From a virus (Duplodnaviria; Caudoviricetes), in IMG/VR virus record IMGVR_UViG_3300023082_000015, positions 1 to 47,345 of that record: a stretch of 47,345 bases of DNA. One strand, given 5' to 3'. Below the pieces are notes generated by a model, which saw only the letters and a list, made by a program, of their open reading frames with translations, was not told where the DNA came from and searched no databases. The number at the start of each line of letters is the position of its first letter. Within the stretch, counting starts at the first letter, position 1. Shown here in pieces: positions 19,446 through 38,797 of this stretch. Both the position numbers and the translations under genes were made by a program.

Positions 19446-19673
19446 GTGTTTATGCACTACAACCCAGCGAGAAAGCAGCGCGCCGCAGATCTACTACAAA
19501 CGGCGACGGAAGGGCCTAGCTACGATATGACCTTCAGCAGCGCCGGCCTTACAGAAGAGCAAAAGAAAGCTGTGGAGGCCGAACTAATCGAGCGCTACAA
19601 GCTGTGGTCTGGTTCCTGGGTTATTCCGAAGCTCAAGAGGCTCGTGCCTGAATTGAAGGAGCCAAAGCCATGA
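19446..19673 (+). CDS. Hypothetical protein (start 19446 or 19452)
   Basis: GAGGT RBS; ATGA coupling. Confidence 0.6.
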   Translation: MFMHYNPARKQRAADLLQTATEGPSYDMTFSSAGLTEEQKKAVEAELIERYKLWSGSWVIPKLKRLVPELKEPKP

Positions 19674-20389
19674 CCACCAACCAAACGATTGACGGCGTGC
19701 CGCGGGCGTATGCGGATCTTGAGCGAATCAATATCCACGGTGAGCCCGATCGTAAGGGCGAAGATGGGGCATGGATAAAAACCTGGAAAGAGCGCCAGCC
19801 AGGGAAAACTATCTCCCATCACTCCAGAGCATCAGGCCTATGGAATAAGATCTCTGCCAGGTGCTTGGCCGGAGGCCAGTATCAGCGAGGGAATCCTGCA
19901 TACGTCGGAACGACCAACGGATTTGGTGACTTTCAACAGTTTGCCGAGTGGTGTAACACCCAGCCAGGTTATTCGTCGTTCGATGCCGAAGGCTTTCGAT
20001 TCGAAATCGACAAAGACATCCTCGTCCCGGGCAACAAGGTCTATTCGCCCGACACCTGCTGCTTTGTTCCTAAGCGCATAAATTCGCTTCTTACGTCGTC
20101 CACCGCTGCACGAGGTGAGTGCCCGATTGGAGTTTCCTATGTGAAGCGACGTGGCGTGTTCATGGCGTACTGCAAGAACGGCGGCAAGATGAAGCATCTT
20201 GGCCATCACGCCAGCGCTGCTCAAGCACATGCTGCCTGGCAAGCCATGAAGGTCGCCATCATCGCCGATGCAGCCATGGATTATCGCGCGATGTATGGCT
20301 CATCGATACGCGTCTATGAGGCTCTGATATATCGAGCAGCCATGATATACCTGGCCCACAAGAACGGAACGGAGACTTTGCAACCATGA
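19670..20389 (+). CDS. HNH-like homing endonuclease with AP2-like C-terminus
   Basis: W..I..RC, FQQFAEW, IDKDIL..GNKVYSPDTCCFVP..IN, PIGVSY..F.AYC..KHLG. Confidence 0.75.
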   Translation: MTTNQTIDGVPRAYADLERINIHGEPDRKGEDGAWIKTWKERQPGKTISHHSRASGLWNKISARCLAGGQYQRGNPAYVGTTNGFGDFQQFAEWCNTQPGYSSFDAEGFRFEIDKDILVPGNKVYSPDTCCFVPKRINSLLTSSTAARGECPIGVSYVKRRGVFMAYCKNGGKMKHLGHHASAAQAHAAWQAMKVAIIADAAMDYRAMYGSSIRVYEALIYRAAMIYLAHKNGTETLQP

Positions 20390-26453: not shown

Positions 26454-27694
26454 TGCAGCTTGAGATAGCCACACCGCGTTGGGCGCTACCCCTGTTGCCC
26501 CCATGTCGCTACAAGGGCGTGAAGGGCGGCCGTGGGTCCGGGAAGAGCCACTTTCTTGCCGAACTCCTGGTTGAGGAACACGTGGCGAACCCGAATCAGC
26601 AGTCTGTGTGCATCCGGGAGATTCAAAAATCGCTCAAGTTCTCGGCCAAAAAGCTGATCGAGGGCAAGATTCGCGCCCTGGGCGTCTCGCACCTGTTCGA
26701 CATCACGCTCACAGAGATACGCCGCATCGGCCACGAAGGCCTTATCATTTTCCAGGGGATGCAGGACCACACCGCCGACTCGATCAAATCCCTGGAAGGC
26801 TTCGACAGGGCCTGGGTGGAGGAAGCGCAGAGCCTGTCCCACCGATCGCTTGAACTGCTACGCCCGACCATCCGTAACCCCGGGTCGCAGATCTGGTTTA
26901 GCTGGAACCCGGATCAGCGCACCGACGCCGTGGATCAGTTCATGTGCAGCGAGGAAGCTGCGAACGATCCCAACTTCTGCTTGATCCACGTCAACCTATT
27001 CGACAACCCGTTCCGTCCGCAGGTGCTCGTCGACGAGATGGAACGCGATCGCACCGCAGCACTCGACACGTTCGGCCACGTGTGGCTGGGTGAATACCGT
27101 GACCGCACCGACGCGCAGATATTCGCCGGCAAGTACCGCATTGGCGCTCTGGATTGGGCAGCAGATTGGGACGGCCCGTACCACGGTCTCGACTGGGGCT
27201 TCAGCCAGGACCCAACCGCCGCAACACGCTGCTGGATCGCACCGGGCAACGTGCTTTACATCGACGCCGAGTGCGGCAAGGTGGGCCTCGAACTTGACGA
27301 CACGCCGGCGTACCTGCAGAACGCACTGCCGGGCATCGCCGATTACGAGGTGATCGCCGACAGCGCGCGCCCTGAGTCCATCAGCTACGTGAAGCGCAAG
27401 GGCATACCGCGCTGCGTCGGTGCCGTGAAGGGCAAAGGCAGCGTCGAGGATGGTATCGATCACCTGAAATCGTTCAGCCAGATAGTGATCCACCCCGACT
27501 GCGTTGAGACGGCCGAGGAATTCAGGCTCTACTCGTACAAGATCGACAAGAAGTCCGGCCAGGTGCTGCGCGACATCGTCGACAAGTTCAATCACTACGT
27601 GGACAGCCTGCGCTACGGTCTCGAAAAGGTGATGATCGCCAAGCAACCAGGCGTCGGGCTGATGATGCCGGCGAGATTACGTCGCAGGGGTTGA
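26453..27694 (+). CDS. terL: Terminase large subunit (PBSX-like)
   Basis: GGRGSGKSH, WVEEAQ, WFSWNP, GLDWGF, NHYVDSLRY. Confidence 0.95.
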   Translation: MQLEIATPRWALPLLPPCRYKGVKGGRGSGKSHFLAELLVEEHVANPNQQSVCIREIQKSLKFSAKKLIEGKIRALGVSHLFDITLTEIRRIGHEGLIIFQGMQDHTADSIKSLEGFDRAWVEEAQSLSHRSLELLRPTIRNPGSQIWFSWNPDQRTDAVDQFMCSEEAANDPNFCLIHVNLFDNPFRPQVLVDEMERDRTAALDTFGHVWLGEYRDRTDAQIFAGKYRIGALDWAADWDGPYHGLDWGFSQDPTAATRCWIAPGNVLYIDAECGKVGLELDDTPAYLQNALPGIADYEVIADSARPESISYVKRKGIPRCVGAVKGKGSVEDGIDHLKSFSQIVIHPDCVETAEEFRLYSYKIDKKSGQVLRDIVDKFNHYVDSLRYGLEKVMIAKQPGVGLMMPARLRRRG

Positions 27695-27719
27695 CAGGTG
27701 CGGCGACCTGTGGGAATCT
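27690..27719 (+). promoter_or_regulatory. Promoter of the ncRNA cluster with degenerate operator
   Basis: TTGACA-N17-GAATCT overlapping the terL stop; GTTGAC-aggtgc-GGCGAC. Confidence 0.6.
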
Positions 27720-27745
27720 GGCCACCTCACCCGCCGCAGAGTCAT

Positions 27746-27889
27746 GAAGGGTTTCAGGTGCAAAGGCGGAACGCACCGGCTGTCCTAGGCACGTAGCAGC
27801 GCCGTTATCGTCTGGCGCGGTAGGCCCCTAGGAGGTAAACGATACGAGATGTCGGGTACAGCGGGAACTCGTTAACAATCCATCCACCA
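27746..27889 (+). ncRNA. Three-armed structured RNA unit ending in ACCA
   Basis: Closing stem GAAGGGTT/AATCCATC then CACCA; arms GGTGC/GCACC, TCCTAGG/CCTAGGA, ACGAG/CTCGT. Confidence 0.5.
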
Positions 27890-27896
27890 ATTTTGA

Positions 27897-28018
27897 CCCT
27901 GCGGGCCGGTAGGACCGGAGCGCCTGGGTAGCCCCTGTCATAGCGGAGTAATTACCCGCCTTGGGCAGATAAGCTCCAGGAGTGCAAACAGAGTTCGATA
28001 CTCTGCGCGGGGAGCACC
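27897..28018 (+). ncRNA. tRNA-like RNA with extended anticodon arm
   Basis: Acceptor CCCTGCG/CGCGGGG; D-like arm CCGGT-agg-ACCGG; ~65-nt middle arm; T arm CAGAG-TTCGATA-CTCTG. Confidence 0.65.
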
Positions 28019-28170
28019 GAAGAAGGCCGAAAGGCAGAACTAAAACGGGGCGACTCAGCGCGCCCACCTTGAACACGACCGACCTGACGCGCAGGGTAAT
28101 CAGGCTCAAGGGGACTTCGGTGGCAGCCAAACAACCAGCGCCAAGGACCAGGGGCCGCACATGCGGCGAG

Positions 28171-28291
28171 TTGCACCAGATGTACCTGCTCAGTACCTCA
28201 GACGGTCAGAGGGCCTGCTCGTATCGTGATGACGTTACGTCCGGGAAGTCGGTGGTTCGAGTCCATCCACGAGCAGGTACATCTGGTGCAA
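28171..28291 (+). ncRNA. tRNA-like RNA enclosed by a 21-bp perfect inverted repeat
   Basis: IR 28171-28191/28271-28291; TA then CCTC-agacggtca-GAGG D arm; GGTGG-TTCGAGT-CCATC T arm; enlarged anticodon arm. Confidence 0.7.
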
Positions 28292-28389
28292 TTGGATTTC
28301 TCCGGTAGGTGGGACTCCTAGATAATCGCGGACCTTCGCGGCAAGGCATGAGCCAATTGCACCAACCCACACCCTGCTGCTCCAGACCT

Positions 28390-28414
28390 TGACCCGCTTC
28401 GGCGGGTTCTTTTT
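28390..28414 (+). terminator. Intrinsic terminator closing the ncRNA cluster
   Basis: gacccgc-ttcg-gcgggtt followed by CTTTTT. Confidence 0.85.
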
Positions 28415-28422
28415 GAAGCACA

Positions 28423-28452
28423 GTTGACACACGCGACATCTTGCACCACACT
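28423..28452 (+). promoter_or_regulatory. Promoter with operator
   Basis: TTGACA-N17-CACACT; GTTGAC-acacgc-GACATC. Confidence 0.6.
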
Positions 28453-28484: not shown

Positions 28485-28958
28485 ATGAAAGTTACCCGTG
28501 AACAACTCCTGGCATCAGGTTACACCGAAGAACAGGTGCGAGTGGCCCAAGGCGTACCGTCCGAGCCCGGCATCGCCGAAGGCCATAGCTACTGGGCGCA
28601 GTCTGCCGTAGCCAAGGGCAAACAAGTCGAACGCCTTGAGGACACCCTGGCCACCGCACACCGCCACCTCAGCATTTACCGTTGGGTCGCTATCGTCGGC
28701 TGGCTCATCGTTATCTGCCTGCTCACCCTGCAGCCGACATACGCCAGCGCCGCAACGCTCCCGGTGGGCAGCCTCGCCTGTGATAACGCCTTGGCATACG
28801 AGGCGCAGATGCTCACGTTCAGCGATGCCACGCTGATCGCCGATCCAGGCTGCGTATTCACCGACCGCGACCTGGTGGTGCATCCGGTCCAGGGCAACGA
28901 GGTGTTCGTCGAGGAACTCGGGTTCAGCGTTTGGGCTGACGTGGAGGTGCTGCAATGA
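28485..28958 (+). CDS. Membrane-anchored hypothetical protein
   Basis: Central TM (WVAIVGWLIVICLLTL) followed by ASA and a 2-Cys domain. Confidence 0.7.
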   Translation: MKVTREQLLASGYTEEQVRVAQGVPSEPGIAEGHSYWAQSAVAKGKQVERLEDTLATAHRHLSIYRWVAIVGWLIVICLLTLQPTYASAATLPVGSLACDNALAYEAQMLTFSDATLIADPGCVFTDRDLVVHPVQGNEVFVEELGFSVWADVEVLQ

Positions 28959-29878: not shown

Positions 29879-30093
29879 CCAGCAAACGCGACCCCAACAA
29901 GATTTACCTCAGCTTCGTGCGCGAGGGCGACGCCTTCAGCATTCAGGACCAGGACGGCCGTAAGGTTGCCGGGTTGAAGGGTGCGGAGTTGAAGTTTCAG
30001 CACGACGAACTGGCCGAGATTCACATGCGGGTGCTCGATTGCACCGTGGCGCATGACGAAAAAACTTGGCACCTCGGGCGGGCCCGGCCATGA
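29875..30093 (+). CDS. Hypothetical protein
   Basis: ATGA coupling. Confidence 0.6.
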   Translation: MTSKRDPNKIYLSFVREGDAFSIQDQDGRKVAGLKGAELKFQHDELAEIHMRVLDCTVAHDEKTWHLGRARP

Positions 30094-30617
30094 AAACCAA
30101 CGACGAATACACCGGCGGCAGCACCACGTACTACCAGGTCGACATCACGCACCCGATCAACGAGCAGGCGCAGCCGTACACCGCCGAGTGCCAGGACATC
30201 ATCGACGCCCTGGGTATGACGTTCAACGAGGGCAACGCGTTTAAAGCATTGTGGCGCCGTTGCGCAGCCCGCACGCTCGGCAAGTCGAAGCGCGGCTACA
30301 CCGACGGCATGTACGACGCTGAGAAAGTGGTGTTCTACGGGGATCGCCTGGTGCAGCTGGAGCAGTTGCAGCGTAAGGCGGACGGGGTAGAGCAAGCCAC
30401 ATTGCCGCTGAAAGGTCAGGTCCCGGCCTGGACCAATCATTCCGGATCGTGGAGAACAACTCGGGAAATGCCAGCAGTCGGAGCCGTAGTTGAGATACAG
30501 CACCGCGATGGGACTATTTCAGGACCCGAGCAAATCACACCGGACGGAGATTTCTGGCTATGGGCTGACCAGACGGAGGTCCTGCCCACAGATATCGTGG
30601 CATACCGCATTCTGTGA
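30090..30617 (+). CDS. DUF3310-like (T7 gp1.7-type nucleotide kinase family) protein
   Basis: GGSTTYY..ECQDIIDALGMTFNEGNAFKALWR..DAEK..FY. Confidence 0.6.
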   Translation: MKTNDEYTGGSTTYYQVDITHPINEQAQPYTAECQDIIDALGMTFNEGNAFKALWRRCAARTLGKSKRGYTDGMYDAEKVVFYGDRLVQLEQLQRKADGVEQATLPLKGQVPAWTNHSGSWRTTREMPAVGAVVEIQHRDGTISGPEQITPDGDFWLWADQTEVLPTDIVAYRIL

Positions 30618-30755: not shown

Positions 30756-30929
30756 ATGAAATATCTTGCCCAAGTCAACATCCAGAACAAAGGCGGGTGC
30801 TACCGTTTTAATTCGGACAGCCTTGACGAAATTCGTAACTGGGCAAAACACGTGGGCAAACCAGGCGACGTCTTGCTTATTCAGCCAAACGGCAAAAACG
30901 GTACCTACTCTCGTTCTTTCACCCTTTAG
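30756..30929 (+). CDS. Solitary 57-aa orphan protein (not in ORF track)
   Basis: AAGGA RBS; MKYLAQVNIQNKGGCYRFNSDSLDEIRNWAKHVGKPGDVLLIQPNGKNGTYSRSFTL. Confidence 0.7.
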   Translation: MKYLAQVNIQNKGGCYRFNSDSLDEIRNWAKHVGKPGDVLLIQPNGKNGTYSRSFTL

Positions 30930-31840
30930 ACTTTTTGAGCAGGTGGGGGATTTTTGGCAAGCATCGCTTTAGCCCGATCGATGATGCCCGGGGTCAGAGG
31001 GTTACCCTTTTCGTCAACCAAAATAGAAACCGTGGAACATTTGCAATTGTACCGGTTTCCCCCGCTGTCCCACCATTCTCGCTGTTCTTGAGTCGTGTAA
31101 AGGTGTGCATGTCGGGCTCGATGATGGGGGCGAGTAACTGGGCTGAGTGCGGACATATGCATCTCTTTAGTGAGAATCCCCAGATCGGTTTTAGCTTGAT
31201 CAGCCTCTGCCATTCGTGCAGCTCTGAGGGCACCGGGAATCTCGGTCCGGGCGATACGTAAAGCTTTTCGAGACTCAATACCTGTTTGCTCAGTCAGCTG
31301 CCGGGCAACGTCCCTAACCCCTTTGCCGGCTGCAAGACCGTCTGAAAGAATTTGGCTCATATTTGTACGGACGCCGGCAGTGAAACCCTGCAAAGAACCC
31401 TGCAATCTGAGTTTCAAGAAAGCCAAACGAGTCTGATACGGTCGAGACGTTAACAGTGCGTCTAAGGTCGGCCGGGAGGCTGCGTACGCGGTAGACTGCA
31501 CCGAAAGATTAGCCAGTTGTTGAGCCGTCCCCTGCTGGTATGCAGGTTGCACGTAAGCCTCTGTGAACCACAGGTCACGGCCGTCGTACTCCAGCAGGAT
31601 GCGGTCCACCTGCGCACCCACGTCGTCGAGCTGCATCTGCAGCATCTCGGGCGTGAGCTGATACTGGTAGACCTCGGCGTTGACCGTTACCACGTTGTAC
31701 GGGATGCGCCCCAAGAGGCCGATGTACAGCGCCCGGACCTTGGCGAGCCGCCGATCGAAGTCGTTGATGGCGCCACGTTCCCGCCGGTCCTGGCCCGTCG
31801 GGTCGTGCGGGTTGCTCGGCAGAATCGCTTGAGCGGCCAT
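30926..31840 (-). CDS. Head morphogenesis protein (Mu gpF/SPP1 gp7-like)
   Basis: RIARTE, TRPHH..RH, NCKCS; follows portal. Confidence 0.85.
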   Translation of the reverse strand: MAAQAILPSNPHDPTGQDRRERGAINDFDRRLAKVRALYIGLLGRIPYNVVTVNAEVYQYQLTPEMLQMQLDDVGAQVDRILLEYDGRDLWFTEAYVQPAYQQGTAQQLANLSVQSTAYAASRPTLDALLTSRPYQTRLAFLKLRLQGSLQGFTAGVRTNMSQILSDGLAAGKGVRDVARQLTEQTGIESRKALRIARTEIPGALRAARMAEADQAKTDLGILTKEMHMSALSPVTRPHHRARHAHLYTTQEQREWWDSGGNRYNCKCSTVSILVDEKGNPLTPGIIDRAKAMLAKNPPPAQKV

Positions 31841-33231
31841 TACTCGGTCACCTGCGGCGGTTGTTGCGCCAGCAGTTCCTCGTCAGTCGGTGCAACGTCC
31901 GGCAGCGGCTCGGGCATGTCTTCCACCTCAAAACCGGCAGTCGTGACGATCTGCTCAGGGCTGAAGTACTTGTCGCCGGTGGAGTTGCCCAGGTTGTTCG
32001 TCTCGGCCATCAGTTTCGCGTTGGCCAGCCGTTCGCTGAGGGTAGCCTCGCCCAGGTCATCCCACACGCAAGTGATTTCCGGGTCGGTGCCGCTGAGCGG
32101 AGTGTCGAGCAGGCGGTACTTCGACAGGTGGGCCACGAAGCCCTCGATGTCATCGCTCAGCTCGTTGACGCGGCGCCCCTGGCCCCGTTTGTTGAAGTCC
32201 TTGATGTCTTCCGTGGAAGCACGTTCACCGGTCTGCATGCCGACCACGATTTTCACCGGAATCTGCACGCTGGCACAGGCGGACTGGAGCGCCACATTGA
32301 ACGGCTTCTCGGGATCGGGAACCGTGGCTACCAGTGGCGTAACCGTGGCGCCCTGCATGCCGAGAACGGTGTCCTGGCCGCGGTTCATGCCCTTGGCGAT
32401 GTCGTCGAACGCCGTGTGCAACTCGCTGAGCGGCACGCCATACATCCGGGCTACCTGGTCCATCTGCGTATCTTTCTCGAAGTTGATCGCCAGTTGACGG
32501 GAGGCGTTTTTGAGGAACGATTCACCGGCGCCGCCGACCACCTTCTCGATCGTCACGAAGTCGTTGTACCCGGCCTTCAGTAGAGGTACGCCGGTACGGT
32601 AGTCGCCCACGATGAACACGCGTGACGGGTGAATCTGCATGGCGCGGCCAGGGTCTAGGCTGTCGTTCTCCTTGACCTGCGCCTCATTGAACGACCACAT
32701 GGATGGTTCGCCATACGTCGGGCTCGTGGGCTCAGTGTCCCATGCGGCAGGTTCGAGCTGGCCTTCCCACGCTGGAATCAGCTTCACCAGCACGCCAACC
32801 TTGGCTTTCAGCGGCTGGTCCCAGGCGAGCCCGTCCGCCACTTGCAATAGGATGCCGGAGTAGTGGCCCACCAGGCGCATGCGGTCCGCTTCTTTGAAGT
32901 GCTTCCACGCTTTCAGCTTCTTGAACTGCTTAGCGATCGACTTTTCCCACGGCGTCTGCGTGGTGTTCTCGTCGGCCTTGTCGCCCTGGATAACCTCGGG
33001 CATGGTCTCCCAGCACTTGTCGAGCAGGCGGTGCACGACACCGTGGGCCACACCGTGACGCTCGTACATGCGGTACAGGTCGTTGAACACCAGGTCATTA
33101 GGGAACCCGTACTCGCACCAGGCACCCGGGCGTTTGGCGTCGTTGCCACCCAGGGACAGGGCGTTACGTGAAGCGATGATTTGCCGCTGCGTCAGTTCGT
33201 TGACGGCCAGCTCAAGGGGCGTAGGCTGCAT
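31840..33231 (-). CDS. Portal protein (DUF1073-like)
   Basis: W.EYGFP, IHPSRV, GAGESFLKNASRQL, G.QTGERASTED; GGAG RBS before ATG 33231. Confidence 0.88.
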   Translation of the reverse strand: MQPTPLELAVNELTQRQIIASRNALSLGGNDAKRPGAWCEYGFPNDLVFNDLYRMYERHGVAHGVVHRLLDKCWETMPEVIQGDKADENTTQTPWEKSIAKQFKKLKAWKHFKEADRMRLVGHYSGILLQVADGLAWDQPLKAKVGVLVKLIPAWEGQLEPAAWDTEPTSPTYGEPSMWSFNEAQVKENDSLDPGRAMQIHPSRVFIVGDYRTGVPLLKAGYNDFVTIEKVVGGAGESFLKNASRQLAINFEKDTQMDQVARMYGVPLSELHTAFDDIAKGMNRGQDTVLGMQGATVTPLVATVPDPEKPFNVALQSACASVQIPVKIVVGMQTGERASTEDIKDFNKRGQGRRVNELSDDIEGFVAHLSKYRLLDTPLSGTDPEITCVWDDLGEATLSERLANAKLMAETNNLGNSTGDKYFSPEQIVTTAGFEVEDMPEPLPDVAPTDEELLAQQPPQVTE

Positions 33232-33326
33232 GTGAGTCGCTCCGGGGCGATTGGGTAATGCTGGACAGGATACACGCACGGTTGACACAGTGGGTAGTTA
33301 CGGGAGTTGACACAAGTGATACACTA

Positions 33327-37845: not shown

Positions 37846-38240
37846 GCAACCCCTACGACGACTTTGTCACCTGGTTCAATGAGACGCCCGGAGCCTCGGC
37901 ATATACGCGCGCCCGAGGCAGCTGGGTCGACAGCCCGACCAATGACGCCAAGCGTTTCGCGGTCTTCGAGTTCATGGGCGGCCCGAAACCCGATGTTGAT
38001 CGGTTCAGCGCCGCTATCGACGTGCTGCTGCTAGGCAAGAAGGGCGAGCGTAACGTGGCCGGGGCGCTACCTGACCTTGAGGAATTCGCTTACTCCTTGG
38101 TGCGTAGGTCAATGTCGGCGAGTTGTAGCGGAAATATCACGTCGATTCGGGCGCAGGCGATGCCAACCGGGCCGGGATACACCACCGAGGACCGCCCTTG
38201 GTACCGCGTGAGTTTCTTGCTAATGGGTGTTGAGCTATGA
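37842..38240 (+). CDS. Tail terminator protein
   Basis: Position; P..TEDRP.YRVSF C-terminus. Confidence 0.65.
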   Translation: MSNPYDDFVTWFNETPGASAYTRARGSWVDSPTNDAKRFAVFEFMGGPKPDVDRFSAAIDVLLLGKKGERNVAGALPDLEEFAYSLVRRSMSASCSGNITSIRAQAMPTGPGYTTEDRPWYRVSFLLMGVEL

Positions 38241-38797
38241 AGGCGTACCTGGTAGGGGTCTACCGCATCAGGAATCTGGTAAACGGGAATCTCTACGTCG
38301 GAAGTTCTCTACATTTGCAAAAACGTAAGTCCGTACATTTTCGTGATTTACGCAAAGGTACTCACCATTCGCAACACCTTCAGAGGGCTTGGCAAAAATA
38401 CGGAGAGTCGAATTTTGTTTTTGAAGTGATGTTTCACTGCGCTAAAGAAACCGCCCGTTGGTACGAACAGAAAGCTTTAGACGTACTGCAGCCCGCTTAC
38501 AACGTTCTAAAGATAGCTGGATCGCCTTACGGTAGAAAGCATACGGAAGACGCCAAGGAAAAGATGAGGATAGCTAAAGTAGGGAAGGTTCAAACCCCTG
38601 AGCACAAAGCTGCTGTTTTAGCTGCGGCTGCGGCTCGCCGAGTTAAGAAGGGGCTATCCCCGGAACAAGTCCGCGATATCCGTATTCGTTTATCCTCGGG
38701 AGAAAATCGAAAAGACGTGAGGGCAACCTATGGTATCTCAAGACACATCATAGATGGTATTCTGCGAAAGAAGTCTTACGCATACGTAACTGACTAG
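38237..38797 (+). mobile_element. Free-standing GIY-YIG homing endonuclease gene with NUMOD3-like motifs
   Basis: GVYRIRN..NG..YVGSS..L.KR..H, LQRAWQKYG..F.FEV, PAYN, GRKHTEDAKEKM; AT-richer than its flanks. Confidence 0.88.

What the first reader, a model, noticed from the sequence alone, without database searches (positions are those of the whole stretch)
27690..28414. Dedicated ~690-nt non-coding operon of atypical tRNA-like RNAs
Seen: there is no credible CDS between terL and 28485. The interval has a TTGACA-N17-GAATCT promoter, a strong UUCG terminator and dense helices with GAAA/UUCG loops. It resolves into tandem multi-arm units (27746-27889, 27897-28018, 28171-28291, 28284-28364). Two units have canonical TTCG T-loops and two end in ACCA, but none has a normal 7-nt anticodon loop. 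Known: phages carry tRNA arrays, and hosts use anticodon nucleases (e.g. PrrC, PARIS AriB). Inference: this is a processed array of non-decoding tRNA mimics, possibly decoys for tRNA-targeting defence, synthetases or the ribosome, or one large structured RNA. It is the best candidate here for an undescribed system.
Basis: partly seen in the sequence, partly recalled or inferred. Interest (0 to 1): 0.9.

Follow-up and report, generated by a model that had tools for sequence, protein, structure and literature searches.

The report
Phage operon of swappable structured RNAs
Right after its DNA-packaging gene this phage carries a protein-free stretch of several interchangeable, uncatalogued structured RNA modules, and the best conserved one recurs in many unrelated phages fused to a tRNA-shaped piece that likely serves as a cutting handle rather than for reading codons.

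Summary
C co-varies strongly: 29 sequences, 98.5% of cells paired, 19 of 28 pairs compensated. In 27 of 30 cases it starts 7-10 nt behind a T-arm, almost always of a tRNA-like domain without a normal anticodon loop. The same fusion occurs in two circularly permuted forms, and C's core occurs in about 320 viral stretches. Close relatives swap modules at module borders. Nothing reaches an Rfam threshold. Best reading: the tRNA shapes are likely RNase P handles that release stable RNAs whose non-tRNA cores likely bind a conserved host factor; a new self-cleaving ribozyme is the main rival. Anticodon-nuclease decoy fits poorly. No transcript ends could be measured.

The parts
27691..27719 (+). Likely sigma-70 promoter: -35 TTGACA (overlapping the terL stop), 17 nt, weak -10 GAATCT with a TG extension
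   Evidence: Sequence. Not called by the scan. Same position and spacing with -10 variants such as TAGATT, TAGAGT, TATTAT, AATACT in 10 related loci.
27730..27878 (+). Module A: uncatalogued pseudoknotted RNA. Near-invariant 73-nt core 27776-27848 (7-bp helix enclosing a hairpin whose loop pairs downstream), variable 5' hairpins, and a 3' hairpin that in homologs forms a further pseudoknot (weak here). Not tRNA-shaped.
   Evidence: 11 sequences, 96.7% of cells paired, only 2 of 19 pairs compensated because the core hardly varies. Core found with 0, 0 and 1 differences in short contigs of RNA libraries from three studies, with other flanks.
27897..28013 (+). Module B: tRNA-shaped domain with 7-bp acceptor stem, short D-like hairpin, T-arm, and a long anticodon arm tipped by a conserved self-complementary loop (27945-27957). 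No CCA; runs straight into C.
   Evidence: Fold; 7 homologs aligned, acceptor and T stems change in step by eye; in phage TPWB-08 B+C fills the gap between tRNA-Asp and tRNA-Gln.
28014..28125 (+). Module C: 112-nt five-helix RNA (four-way junction P1-P4 plus P5) with invariant junction strands; first bases GC predicted to clamp onto GG(U/C) at its 3' end
   Evidence: 29 distinct sequences, 98.5% of cells paired, 19 of 28 pairs compensated; shuffles 73.1%, slid controls 31-45%. No Rfam match.
28130..28170 (+). Module D: conserved leader of the D-E-F cassette ending in a GCCGCA/UGCGGC hairpin; its 5' half can pair with the tail before the terminator
   Evidence: Homologs L004, L293, L091, L286/L288, L424, L533; long-range pairing only predicted.
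28171..28291 (+). Module E: perfect 21-bp carrier stem (28171-28191 / 28271-28291) holding a tRNA-like head (28188-28275) with an extended anticodon arm. Relatives keep the stem and carry unrelated payloads.
   Evidence: z -7.76. Different payloads in L004, L293, L424, L533, L439, L286/L288.
28284..28364 (+). Module F: small RNA closed by UGGUGCAA/UUGCACCA, interior variable; its 5' strand is hidden by the E stem in the precursor
   Evidence: The same three-word arrangement is seen in L293, L424, L439, L533 and, shortened, L004.
28391..28414 (+). Intrinsic terminator (7-bp stem, UUCG loop, U tract)
28424..28452 (+). Second likely promoter (TTGACA-N17-CACACT) for the downstream small ORFs, so the RNA operon is not their leader
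   Evidence: Sequence; kept in L004 and L293; not called by the scan.

Best explanation
The stretch is a non-coding operon of separately swappable, conserved structured RNA modules that is likely transcribed from one promoter and likely cut apart by the host's tRNA-maturation enzymes, with the tRNA-shaped parts likely acting as cutting and stability handles and the non-tRNA cores (C, A) likely binding a conserved host factor late in infection. Shown: the modules, their covariation, their swapping, the fixed fusion of C behind a non-decoding tRNA-like domain, and the persistence of that fusion in circularly permuted forms. Inferred: RNase P cuts at the 5' end of B. In the P4-open permuted genes the same cut would give a two-piece RNA with the same acceptor-to-P1 joint, as in permuted tmRNA. 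An RNase III-type cut in the E stem would free its payload and unmask F. Least certain: the mature B-C RNA, blocked at its acceptor end and without a readable anticodon, acts in trans as a ligand or sponge for a factor conserved across hosts (tRNA-processing or translation machinery, or a defence sensor of it).
For: Covariation of C. T-arm of at least 4 of 5 pairs 7-10 nt before C in 27 of 30. Anticodon arms free in length and sequence. Same T-arm-acceptor-GC-P1 joint in 7 P4-open forms among 103 cores examined and in 2 P2-open forms. Homologs sit inside tRNA arrays or between Q and holin. A relative keeps B-C-D with 5 differences in 288 nt against 95 in 1208 nt of terL, while replacing A and E/F; another swaps A-B-C and the E payload. 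An invariant P3 helix across phages of Pseudomonas, Vibrio, enterobacteria and Arthrobacter with no common neighbour gene seen points to a conserved host target or a self-contained activity. YrlA shows that bacterial tRNA mimics can be RNase P substrates (section heading of PMC4201824).
Against: No transcript ends, strand or level could be measured: all 8 runs laid were contigs. No binding partner is identified. Permutation and invariant junction bases fit a ribozyme equally well. 3 of 30 C modules fail the strict T-arm test (L101 and L102 at 3 of 5 pairs, L294 at 0 of 5). Many cores sit in other frames: only 18 of 103 passed the fusion test, one of them spuriously, so the handle reading does not cover the whole family. 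The promoter's -10 here is weak.
Confidence: 0.5

Rival explanations
1. Module C (and perhaps A) is a new class of self-cleaving or RNA-processing ribozyme that trims or joins the neighbouring RNAs.
For: Compact junction with invariant unpaired bases, optional P2, three circular permutations, variable peripheral inserts. It starts at a tRNA 3' end, as theta ribozymes do (PMC10879173 abstract).
Against: The upstream partner is almost never a usable tRNA (1 of 30 with a normal loop). No known ribozyme family matches (Rfam). No HDV-like topology on the + strand with a loose, unvalidated descriptor. An invariant 5-bp helix also fits protein binding.
Confidence: 0.27
2. The RNAs self-assemble into RNA-only multimers, as GOLLD and ROOL do.
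For: The B loop is an 8-nt palindrome in 6 of 7 homologs and stays self-complementary through G-U pairs in the seventh. The P5 loop holds CGCG in 28 of 29 and a 6-nt palindrome in the other. Palindromic kissing loops bridge GOLLD and OLE subunits, and GOLLD/ROOL lie near phage tRNAs (PMC12286853 passages).
Against: Most tRNA-like partners of C have no palindromic tip (by eye). P4-open forms lack P5. No chance test was run on the palindromes. These RNAs are far smaller than GOLLD/ROOL.
Confidence: 0.12
3. Decoys for anticodon nucleases (PrrC, AriB) or chargeable tRNA mimics.
For: tRNA-like elbows in B and E; D/E and F end in GCACCA, as T4 rnaD does; position in tRNA arrays.
Against: The anticodon arm is unconstrained, B and the E head have no CCA, and A and C are not tRNA-shaped. 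PrrC needs anticodon sequence, modifications and stem.
Confidence: 0.08
4. One large RNA, or decayed tRNA genes.
For: The whole region folds stably.
Against: Modules swap at their borders in relatives, B-C-D is better conserved than terL, and covariation is strong.
Confidence: 0.03

Closest known systems
Phage T4 RNAC and RNAD (species 1 and 2 RNAs)
   Same: Small stable RNAs of unknown function in a phage tRNA cluster. rnaC has a T-arm on a non-tRNA body and rnaD ends in GCACCA like D/E and F.
   Different: No match to the module C model (L303 had no hit at E<=1) and no shared motif by eye; no permuted forms reported in the passages I read.
GOLLD and ROOL RNAs
   Same: Phage-encoded, near tRNA islands, sometimes with linked tRNAs, function unknown (PMC12286853 passages).
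   Different: Many GOLLD RNAs exceed 800 nt as single RNAs; no Rfam match here; this operon is several small swappable modules.
Bacterial Y RNA (YrlA)
   Same: Non-decoding tRNA mimic with an extra domain; E is a long stem carrying a tRNA-like head.
   Different: YrlA runs T-AS-D with a closed acceptor stem and is encoded near Ro60 (PMC4201824 abstract and section 6). B and E run D-anticodon-T. No TROVE gene in this genome or five carrier phages.
Theta (HDV-like) ribozymes
   Same: Structured RNA starting at the 3' end of a phage tRNA.
   Different: C is a nested four-way junction, not HDV-like; its partner is a non-decoding tRNA-like domain.
Two-piece (permuted) tmRNA (recalled from my own knowledge)
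   Same: tRNA-like domain without a true anticodon joined to a larger body, found in standard and circularly permuted genes.
   Different: No tag reading frame or CCA end; ARAGORN finds no tmRNA; no Rfam tmRNA hit in the window.

Membership tests
tRNA | Cloverleaf scoring at the Rfam/ARAGORN threshold | tested here: not met
tRNA | 7-nt anticodon loop with U33 | tested here: not met
   B and E have long arms; 1 of 30 partners of C has one (by eye)
tRNA | Acceptor stem plus T-arm | tested here: met
   B and E head
tRNA | Aminoacylation | not testable with these tools
   Needs a bench assay
Y RNA (YrlA) | Ro60/Rsr gene nearby | tested here: not met
   PF05731 absent from the window genome and from 5 of 5 carrier phage records, 3 of them at least 90% complete
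Y RNA (YrlA) | T-AS-D order with closed acceptor stem | tested here: not met
   B and E run D-anticodon-T
GOLLD / ROOL | Match to the Rfam model | tested here: not met
   No hit at E<=10 or at gathering score
GOLLD / ROOL | RNA-only multimer | not testable with these tools
   Only palindromic loops as a hint
Theta / HDV-like ribozyme | HDV-like nested pseudoknot with catalytic C in J4/2 | tested here: not met
   C's covarying structure is a nested junction. A loose home-made descriptor, not checked on a positive, gave 0 hits on + and 7 overlapping hits on -.
Theta / HDV-like ribozyme | Self-cleavage at the tRNA 3' end | not testable with these tools
   Needs in vitro transcription
Group I intron | P, Q, R, S core elements in order | tested here: not met
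   C shares two short words with group I introns caught by the same pattern, but in those the first word belongs to P1 and the P and R elements follow; C lacks them. Model score of L138 is 14.4 bits, E 0.095. Element names are recalled.
T4 RNAC/RNAD | Sequence or structure homology | tested here: not met
   only the module C model was searched against the T4 region
PasD / STnc100 prophage sRNAs | Match to RF02076 or PasD | tested here: inconclusive
   No RF02076 hit in the window or in L295/L308; the PasD sequence itself was not compared

The most novel reading that the evidence does not exclude
Module C is the core of a new, widespread class of phage ribozyme (or RNP) that is built in three circular permutations and plugged into tRNA-shaped handles, and this operon is a plug-and-play rack of several such undescribed RNA classes (C, A, D-E-F).
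Probability: 0.3. Interest if true: 0.92.

Novelty: new variant of a known kind. Interest (0 to 1): 0.74.

Why it matters
Phage tRNA clusters have long held stable RNAs of unknown function (T4 RNAC/RNAD). This locus yields at least two well-defined, uncatalogued RNA families with a minimal conserved core, natural permutations and carriers among cultured phages, including E. coli phages. A short in vitro transcript can test self-cleavage and RNase P cutting, and a deletion can test function. It also suggests that many 'tRNA-OTHER' or odd-anticodon calls in phage annotations are handles of such RNAs rather than decoding tRNAs.

Tried and rejected
Model R1 and its pair count used a structure string typed off register; both were discarded and redone. 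The genome-contig scan gave 120 stretches; after filtering on a P5-like word, the two left were chance. Of 51 viral hits, several were chance and five were read as group I introns; homology was rejected. The F-stem scan was mostly chance: of 89 unique matches only L439 and L533 were new real cases, so I could not confirm that F is widespread. No match in plasmids, none for the A core among named phages beyond chance, and 0 of 401 cellular genomes of one class sample had the core pattern. The PHROG label '3'-phosphatase, 5'-polynucleotide kinase' on ORF 30066-30617 covers only a small shared domain, so it is not evidence of RNA repair. RNA-library contigs are homologs from other organisms and do not show transcription. 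My search for acceptor 5' strands often picked a wrong register and is not used. Nine literature searches ran besides the PasD one; none returned a description of these RNAs. In PMC10690425, contig ids were not found in the files searched and three motif words not in file 4, but two zip files and three large files, probably holding the alignments, could not be read, so a candidate there cannot be excluded.

Full report
Setting. The window is a 47-kb tailed-phage genome (virus record). Its closest named capsid relative is Pseudomonas phage MR14 at 60.6%, so the host is not established. The interval lies between terL (stop at 27694) and a group of small ORFs starting at 28485. ARAGORN finds nothing, Rfam nothing at gathering score, and at E<=10 only a sub-threshold tRNA hit at 28188-28275 and three weak ones. 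The overlapping ORFs have no Pfam family. A terminator is called at 28391. The promoter is not called here, but related loci carry the same -35 and spacing with mostly better -10 hexamers.

Modules. BLAST against named phages hit 27887-28125 in phage TPWB-08, exactly between tRNA-Asp and tRNA-Gln, and 28014-28116 inside the tRNA arrays of jumbo phages D6 and Psa21. Contigs of close relatives show swapping at module borders. One 38.7-kb contig keeps the promoter to 27707, has 103 other letters in place of A, keeps 27890-28177 with 5 differences in 288 nt (terL: 95 in 1208), and has 674 other letters in place of E/F. Another replaces A-B-C and the E payload but keeps D. This excludes both decay and a single large RNA.

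Module C (28014-28125). Pattern scans and named phages gave 29 distinct full-length sequences including the window (two from one locus), plus L371. The five-helix model has 98.5% of 811 cells paired and 19 of 28 pairs compensated, against 73.1% in shuffles and 31-45% in slid controls. The set was selected by patterns in the unpaired strands, so invariance of those strands is partly built in; the helix covariation is not. In 27 of 30 cases a T-arm with at least 4 of 5 pairs ends 7-10 nt before C's first base. By eye only L095 has a normal 7-nt anticodon loop; the others have loops of 3 to 14 nt or long inserts. C begins with GC where CCA would stand, and these two bases can pair with GG(U/C) at C's 3' end (29 and 28 of 29; little variation, so weak evidence).

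Permutations. In L142 and L119 the RNA opens in P2 and the tRNA-like domain lies between the two P1 strands (model scores 67.4 and 82.4 bits). In Erwinia phages Faunus and KEY, Serratia phages ChuuTotoro and 2050HW and three viral contigs it opens in P4, lacks P5, and again holds the tRNA-like domain inside P1 with the same acceptor-GC-P1 joint (7 of 103 cores examined; the test demanded the GG(U/C) word, so it does not prove the clamp). The minimal core, an A-rich strand plus the invariant P3 hairpin, is in about 320 IMG/VR stretches (estimate; 120 read, 96 unique, loop 8-9 nt in 107 of 120). Matching P4 and P1 partner strands around a short junction were found in 49 of 90 cores against 2-8 in shuffles (29 of the 49 are of the window's type). 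Many cores sit in other frames, for instance inside a tRNA-shaped RNA between Q and holin of CUS-3, present in 120 of 5426 E. coli genomes. The core was in 0 of 401 sampled cellular genomes. None of the homolog sets matched an Rfam family at the core.

Module B is one of several tRNA-like partners of C; 7 homologs share a long anticodon arm with a self-complementary tip. Module A is a second family: 8 of 10 viral hits were real and 4 new loci came from 8 metagenome hits (one was the window's own contig and three repeated known loci). Its 73-nt core is nearly invariant, with one compensated pair in the outer helix and one in the loop pseudoknot, register-shifted compensations in L285 and L287, and a further 3' pseudoknot in most homologs that is weak here (by eye). 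It has no T-arm or acceptor stem. Its core appears almost unchanged in 154-244 nt contigs of RNA libraries from three studies, a hint of expression in other phages and no more.

D-E-F. The 21-bp E stem is kept while the payload changes (L004, L293, L424, L533, L439, L286/L288), and it hides the 5' strand of F's closing stem. I read this as a processing stem, following the lead of note e1-5948039; my scan did not confirm that F is widespread. Folded alone with the downstream tail, F's closing stem had only 0.03 probability, so the F stem rests on its recurrence, not on energy.

Mechanism. Shown: modular operon, covarying structures, fixed fusion to non-decoding tRNA-like domains, permutation. 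From established knowledge: RNase P reads the acceptor stem and elbow rather than the anticodon, which explains why only those parts are kept; long perfect stems are RNase III substrates. Inferred: one transcript is cut into stable RNAs; in P4-open genes the RNase P cut would yield a two-piece RNA with the same joint. Least certain: what the cores do. Invariance across phages of distant hosts without a shared neighbour gene points to a conserved host target or to catalysis. I put 0.5 on the handle-plus-ligand reading, 0.27 on a new ribozyme, 0.12 on RNA-only multimers, 0.08 on anticodon-nuclease decoy or chargeable mimic.

Known and novel. It works most like T4 RNAC/RNAD and GOLLD/ROOL (phage tRNA-cluster RNAs of unknown function) but is a member of none, nor of Y RNA, theta ribozymes, tmRNA or group I introns. 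Papers seen: PMC10690425 passages and part of the supplements; PMC9697503 and PMC3014915 passages; bioRxiv 10.64898/2026.05.13.724894 passages; PMC10879173 abstract and passages; PMC12286853 passages; PMC4201824 abstract and section 6. Searches found no description; the library lacks most subscription journals.

Noticed in passing
L002 1493-1630, 1722-1830, 2110-2195; L003 1665-1800, 2095-2170: Further non-tRNA elements in the D6 and Psa21 tRNA arrays, two of them shared between the phages with compensating changes, with a recurring TAAAAC word; no Rfam match.
   Followed up: no
L295 450-672 (CUS-3), L308, L317 and many of L304-L423: The C core is inserted at the anticodon position of a tRNA-shaped frame whose D-like and T-like loops are complementary; it sits in the late leader between Q and holin.
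   Followed up: partly
L300, L301, L302: Arthrobacter, Acinetobacter and Pseudomonas phages carry the core around a shared insert of about 100-150 nt with its own conserved words; P2 appears absent.
   Followed up: no
L088 1179-1292 and 1770-1883: Two divergent copies of the tRNA-like + C unit in one jumbo-phage array.
   Followed up: partly
L124, L126, L128, L138, L139, L155: Probable group I introns; L138 interrupts what reads as a ribonucleotide reductase gene (motif recalled).
   Followed up: partly
window 30926-33288: Portal and head-morphogenesis genes lie on the minus strand, inverted against terL and the capsid genes, with the RNA operon and small ORFs in between; TPWB-08 has its tRNA/RNA cassette in a like position.
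   Followed up: no
window 27877-27885 and 28262-28270: A 9-nt direct repeat shared by the tail of A and the 3' side of the E head, possibly the remnant of a lost tRNA-like unit.
   Followed up: no
L089 1526-1608: A Proteo-phage-1 RNA (RF03044, 58.9 bits) lies in the same array as a C module.
   Followed up: no
window 19670-20389 and 38237-38797: An HNH endonuclease gene and a homing-endonuclease-like gene among the replication and tail genes.
   Followed up: no
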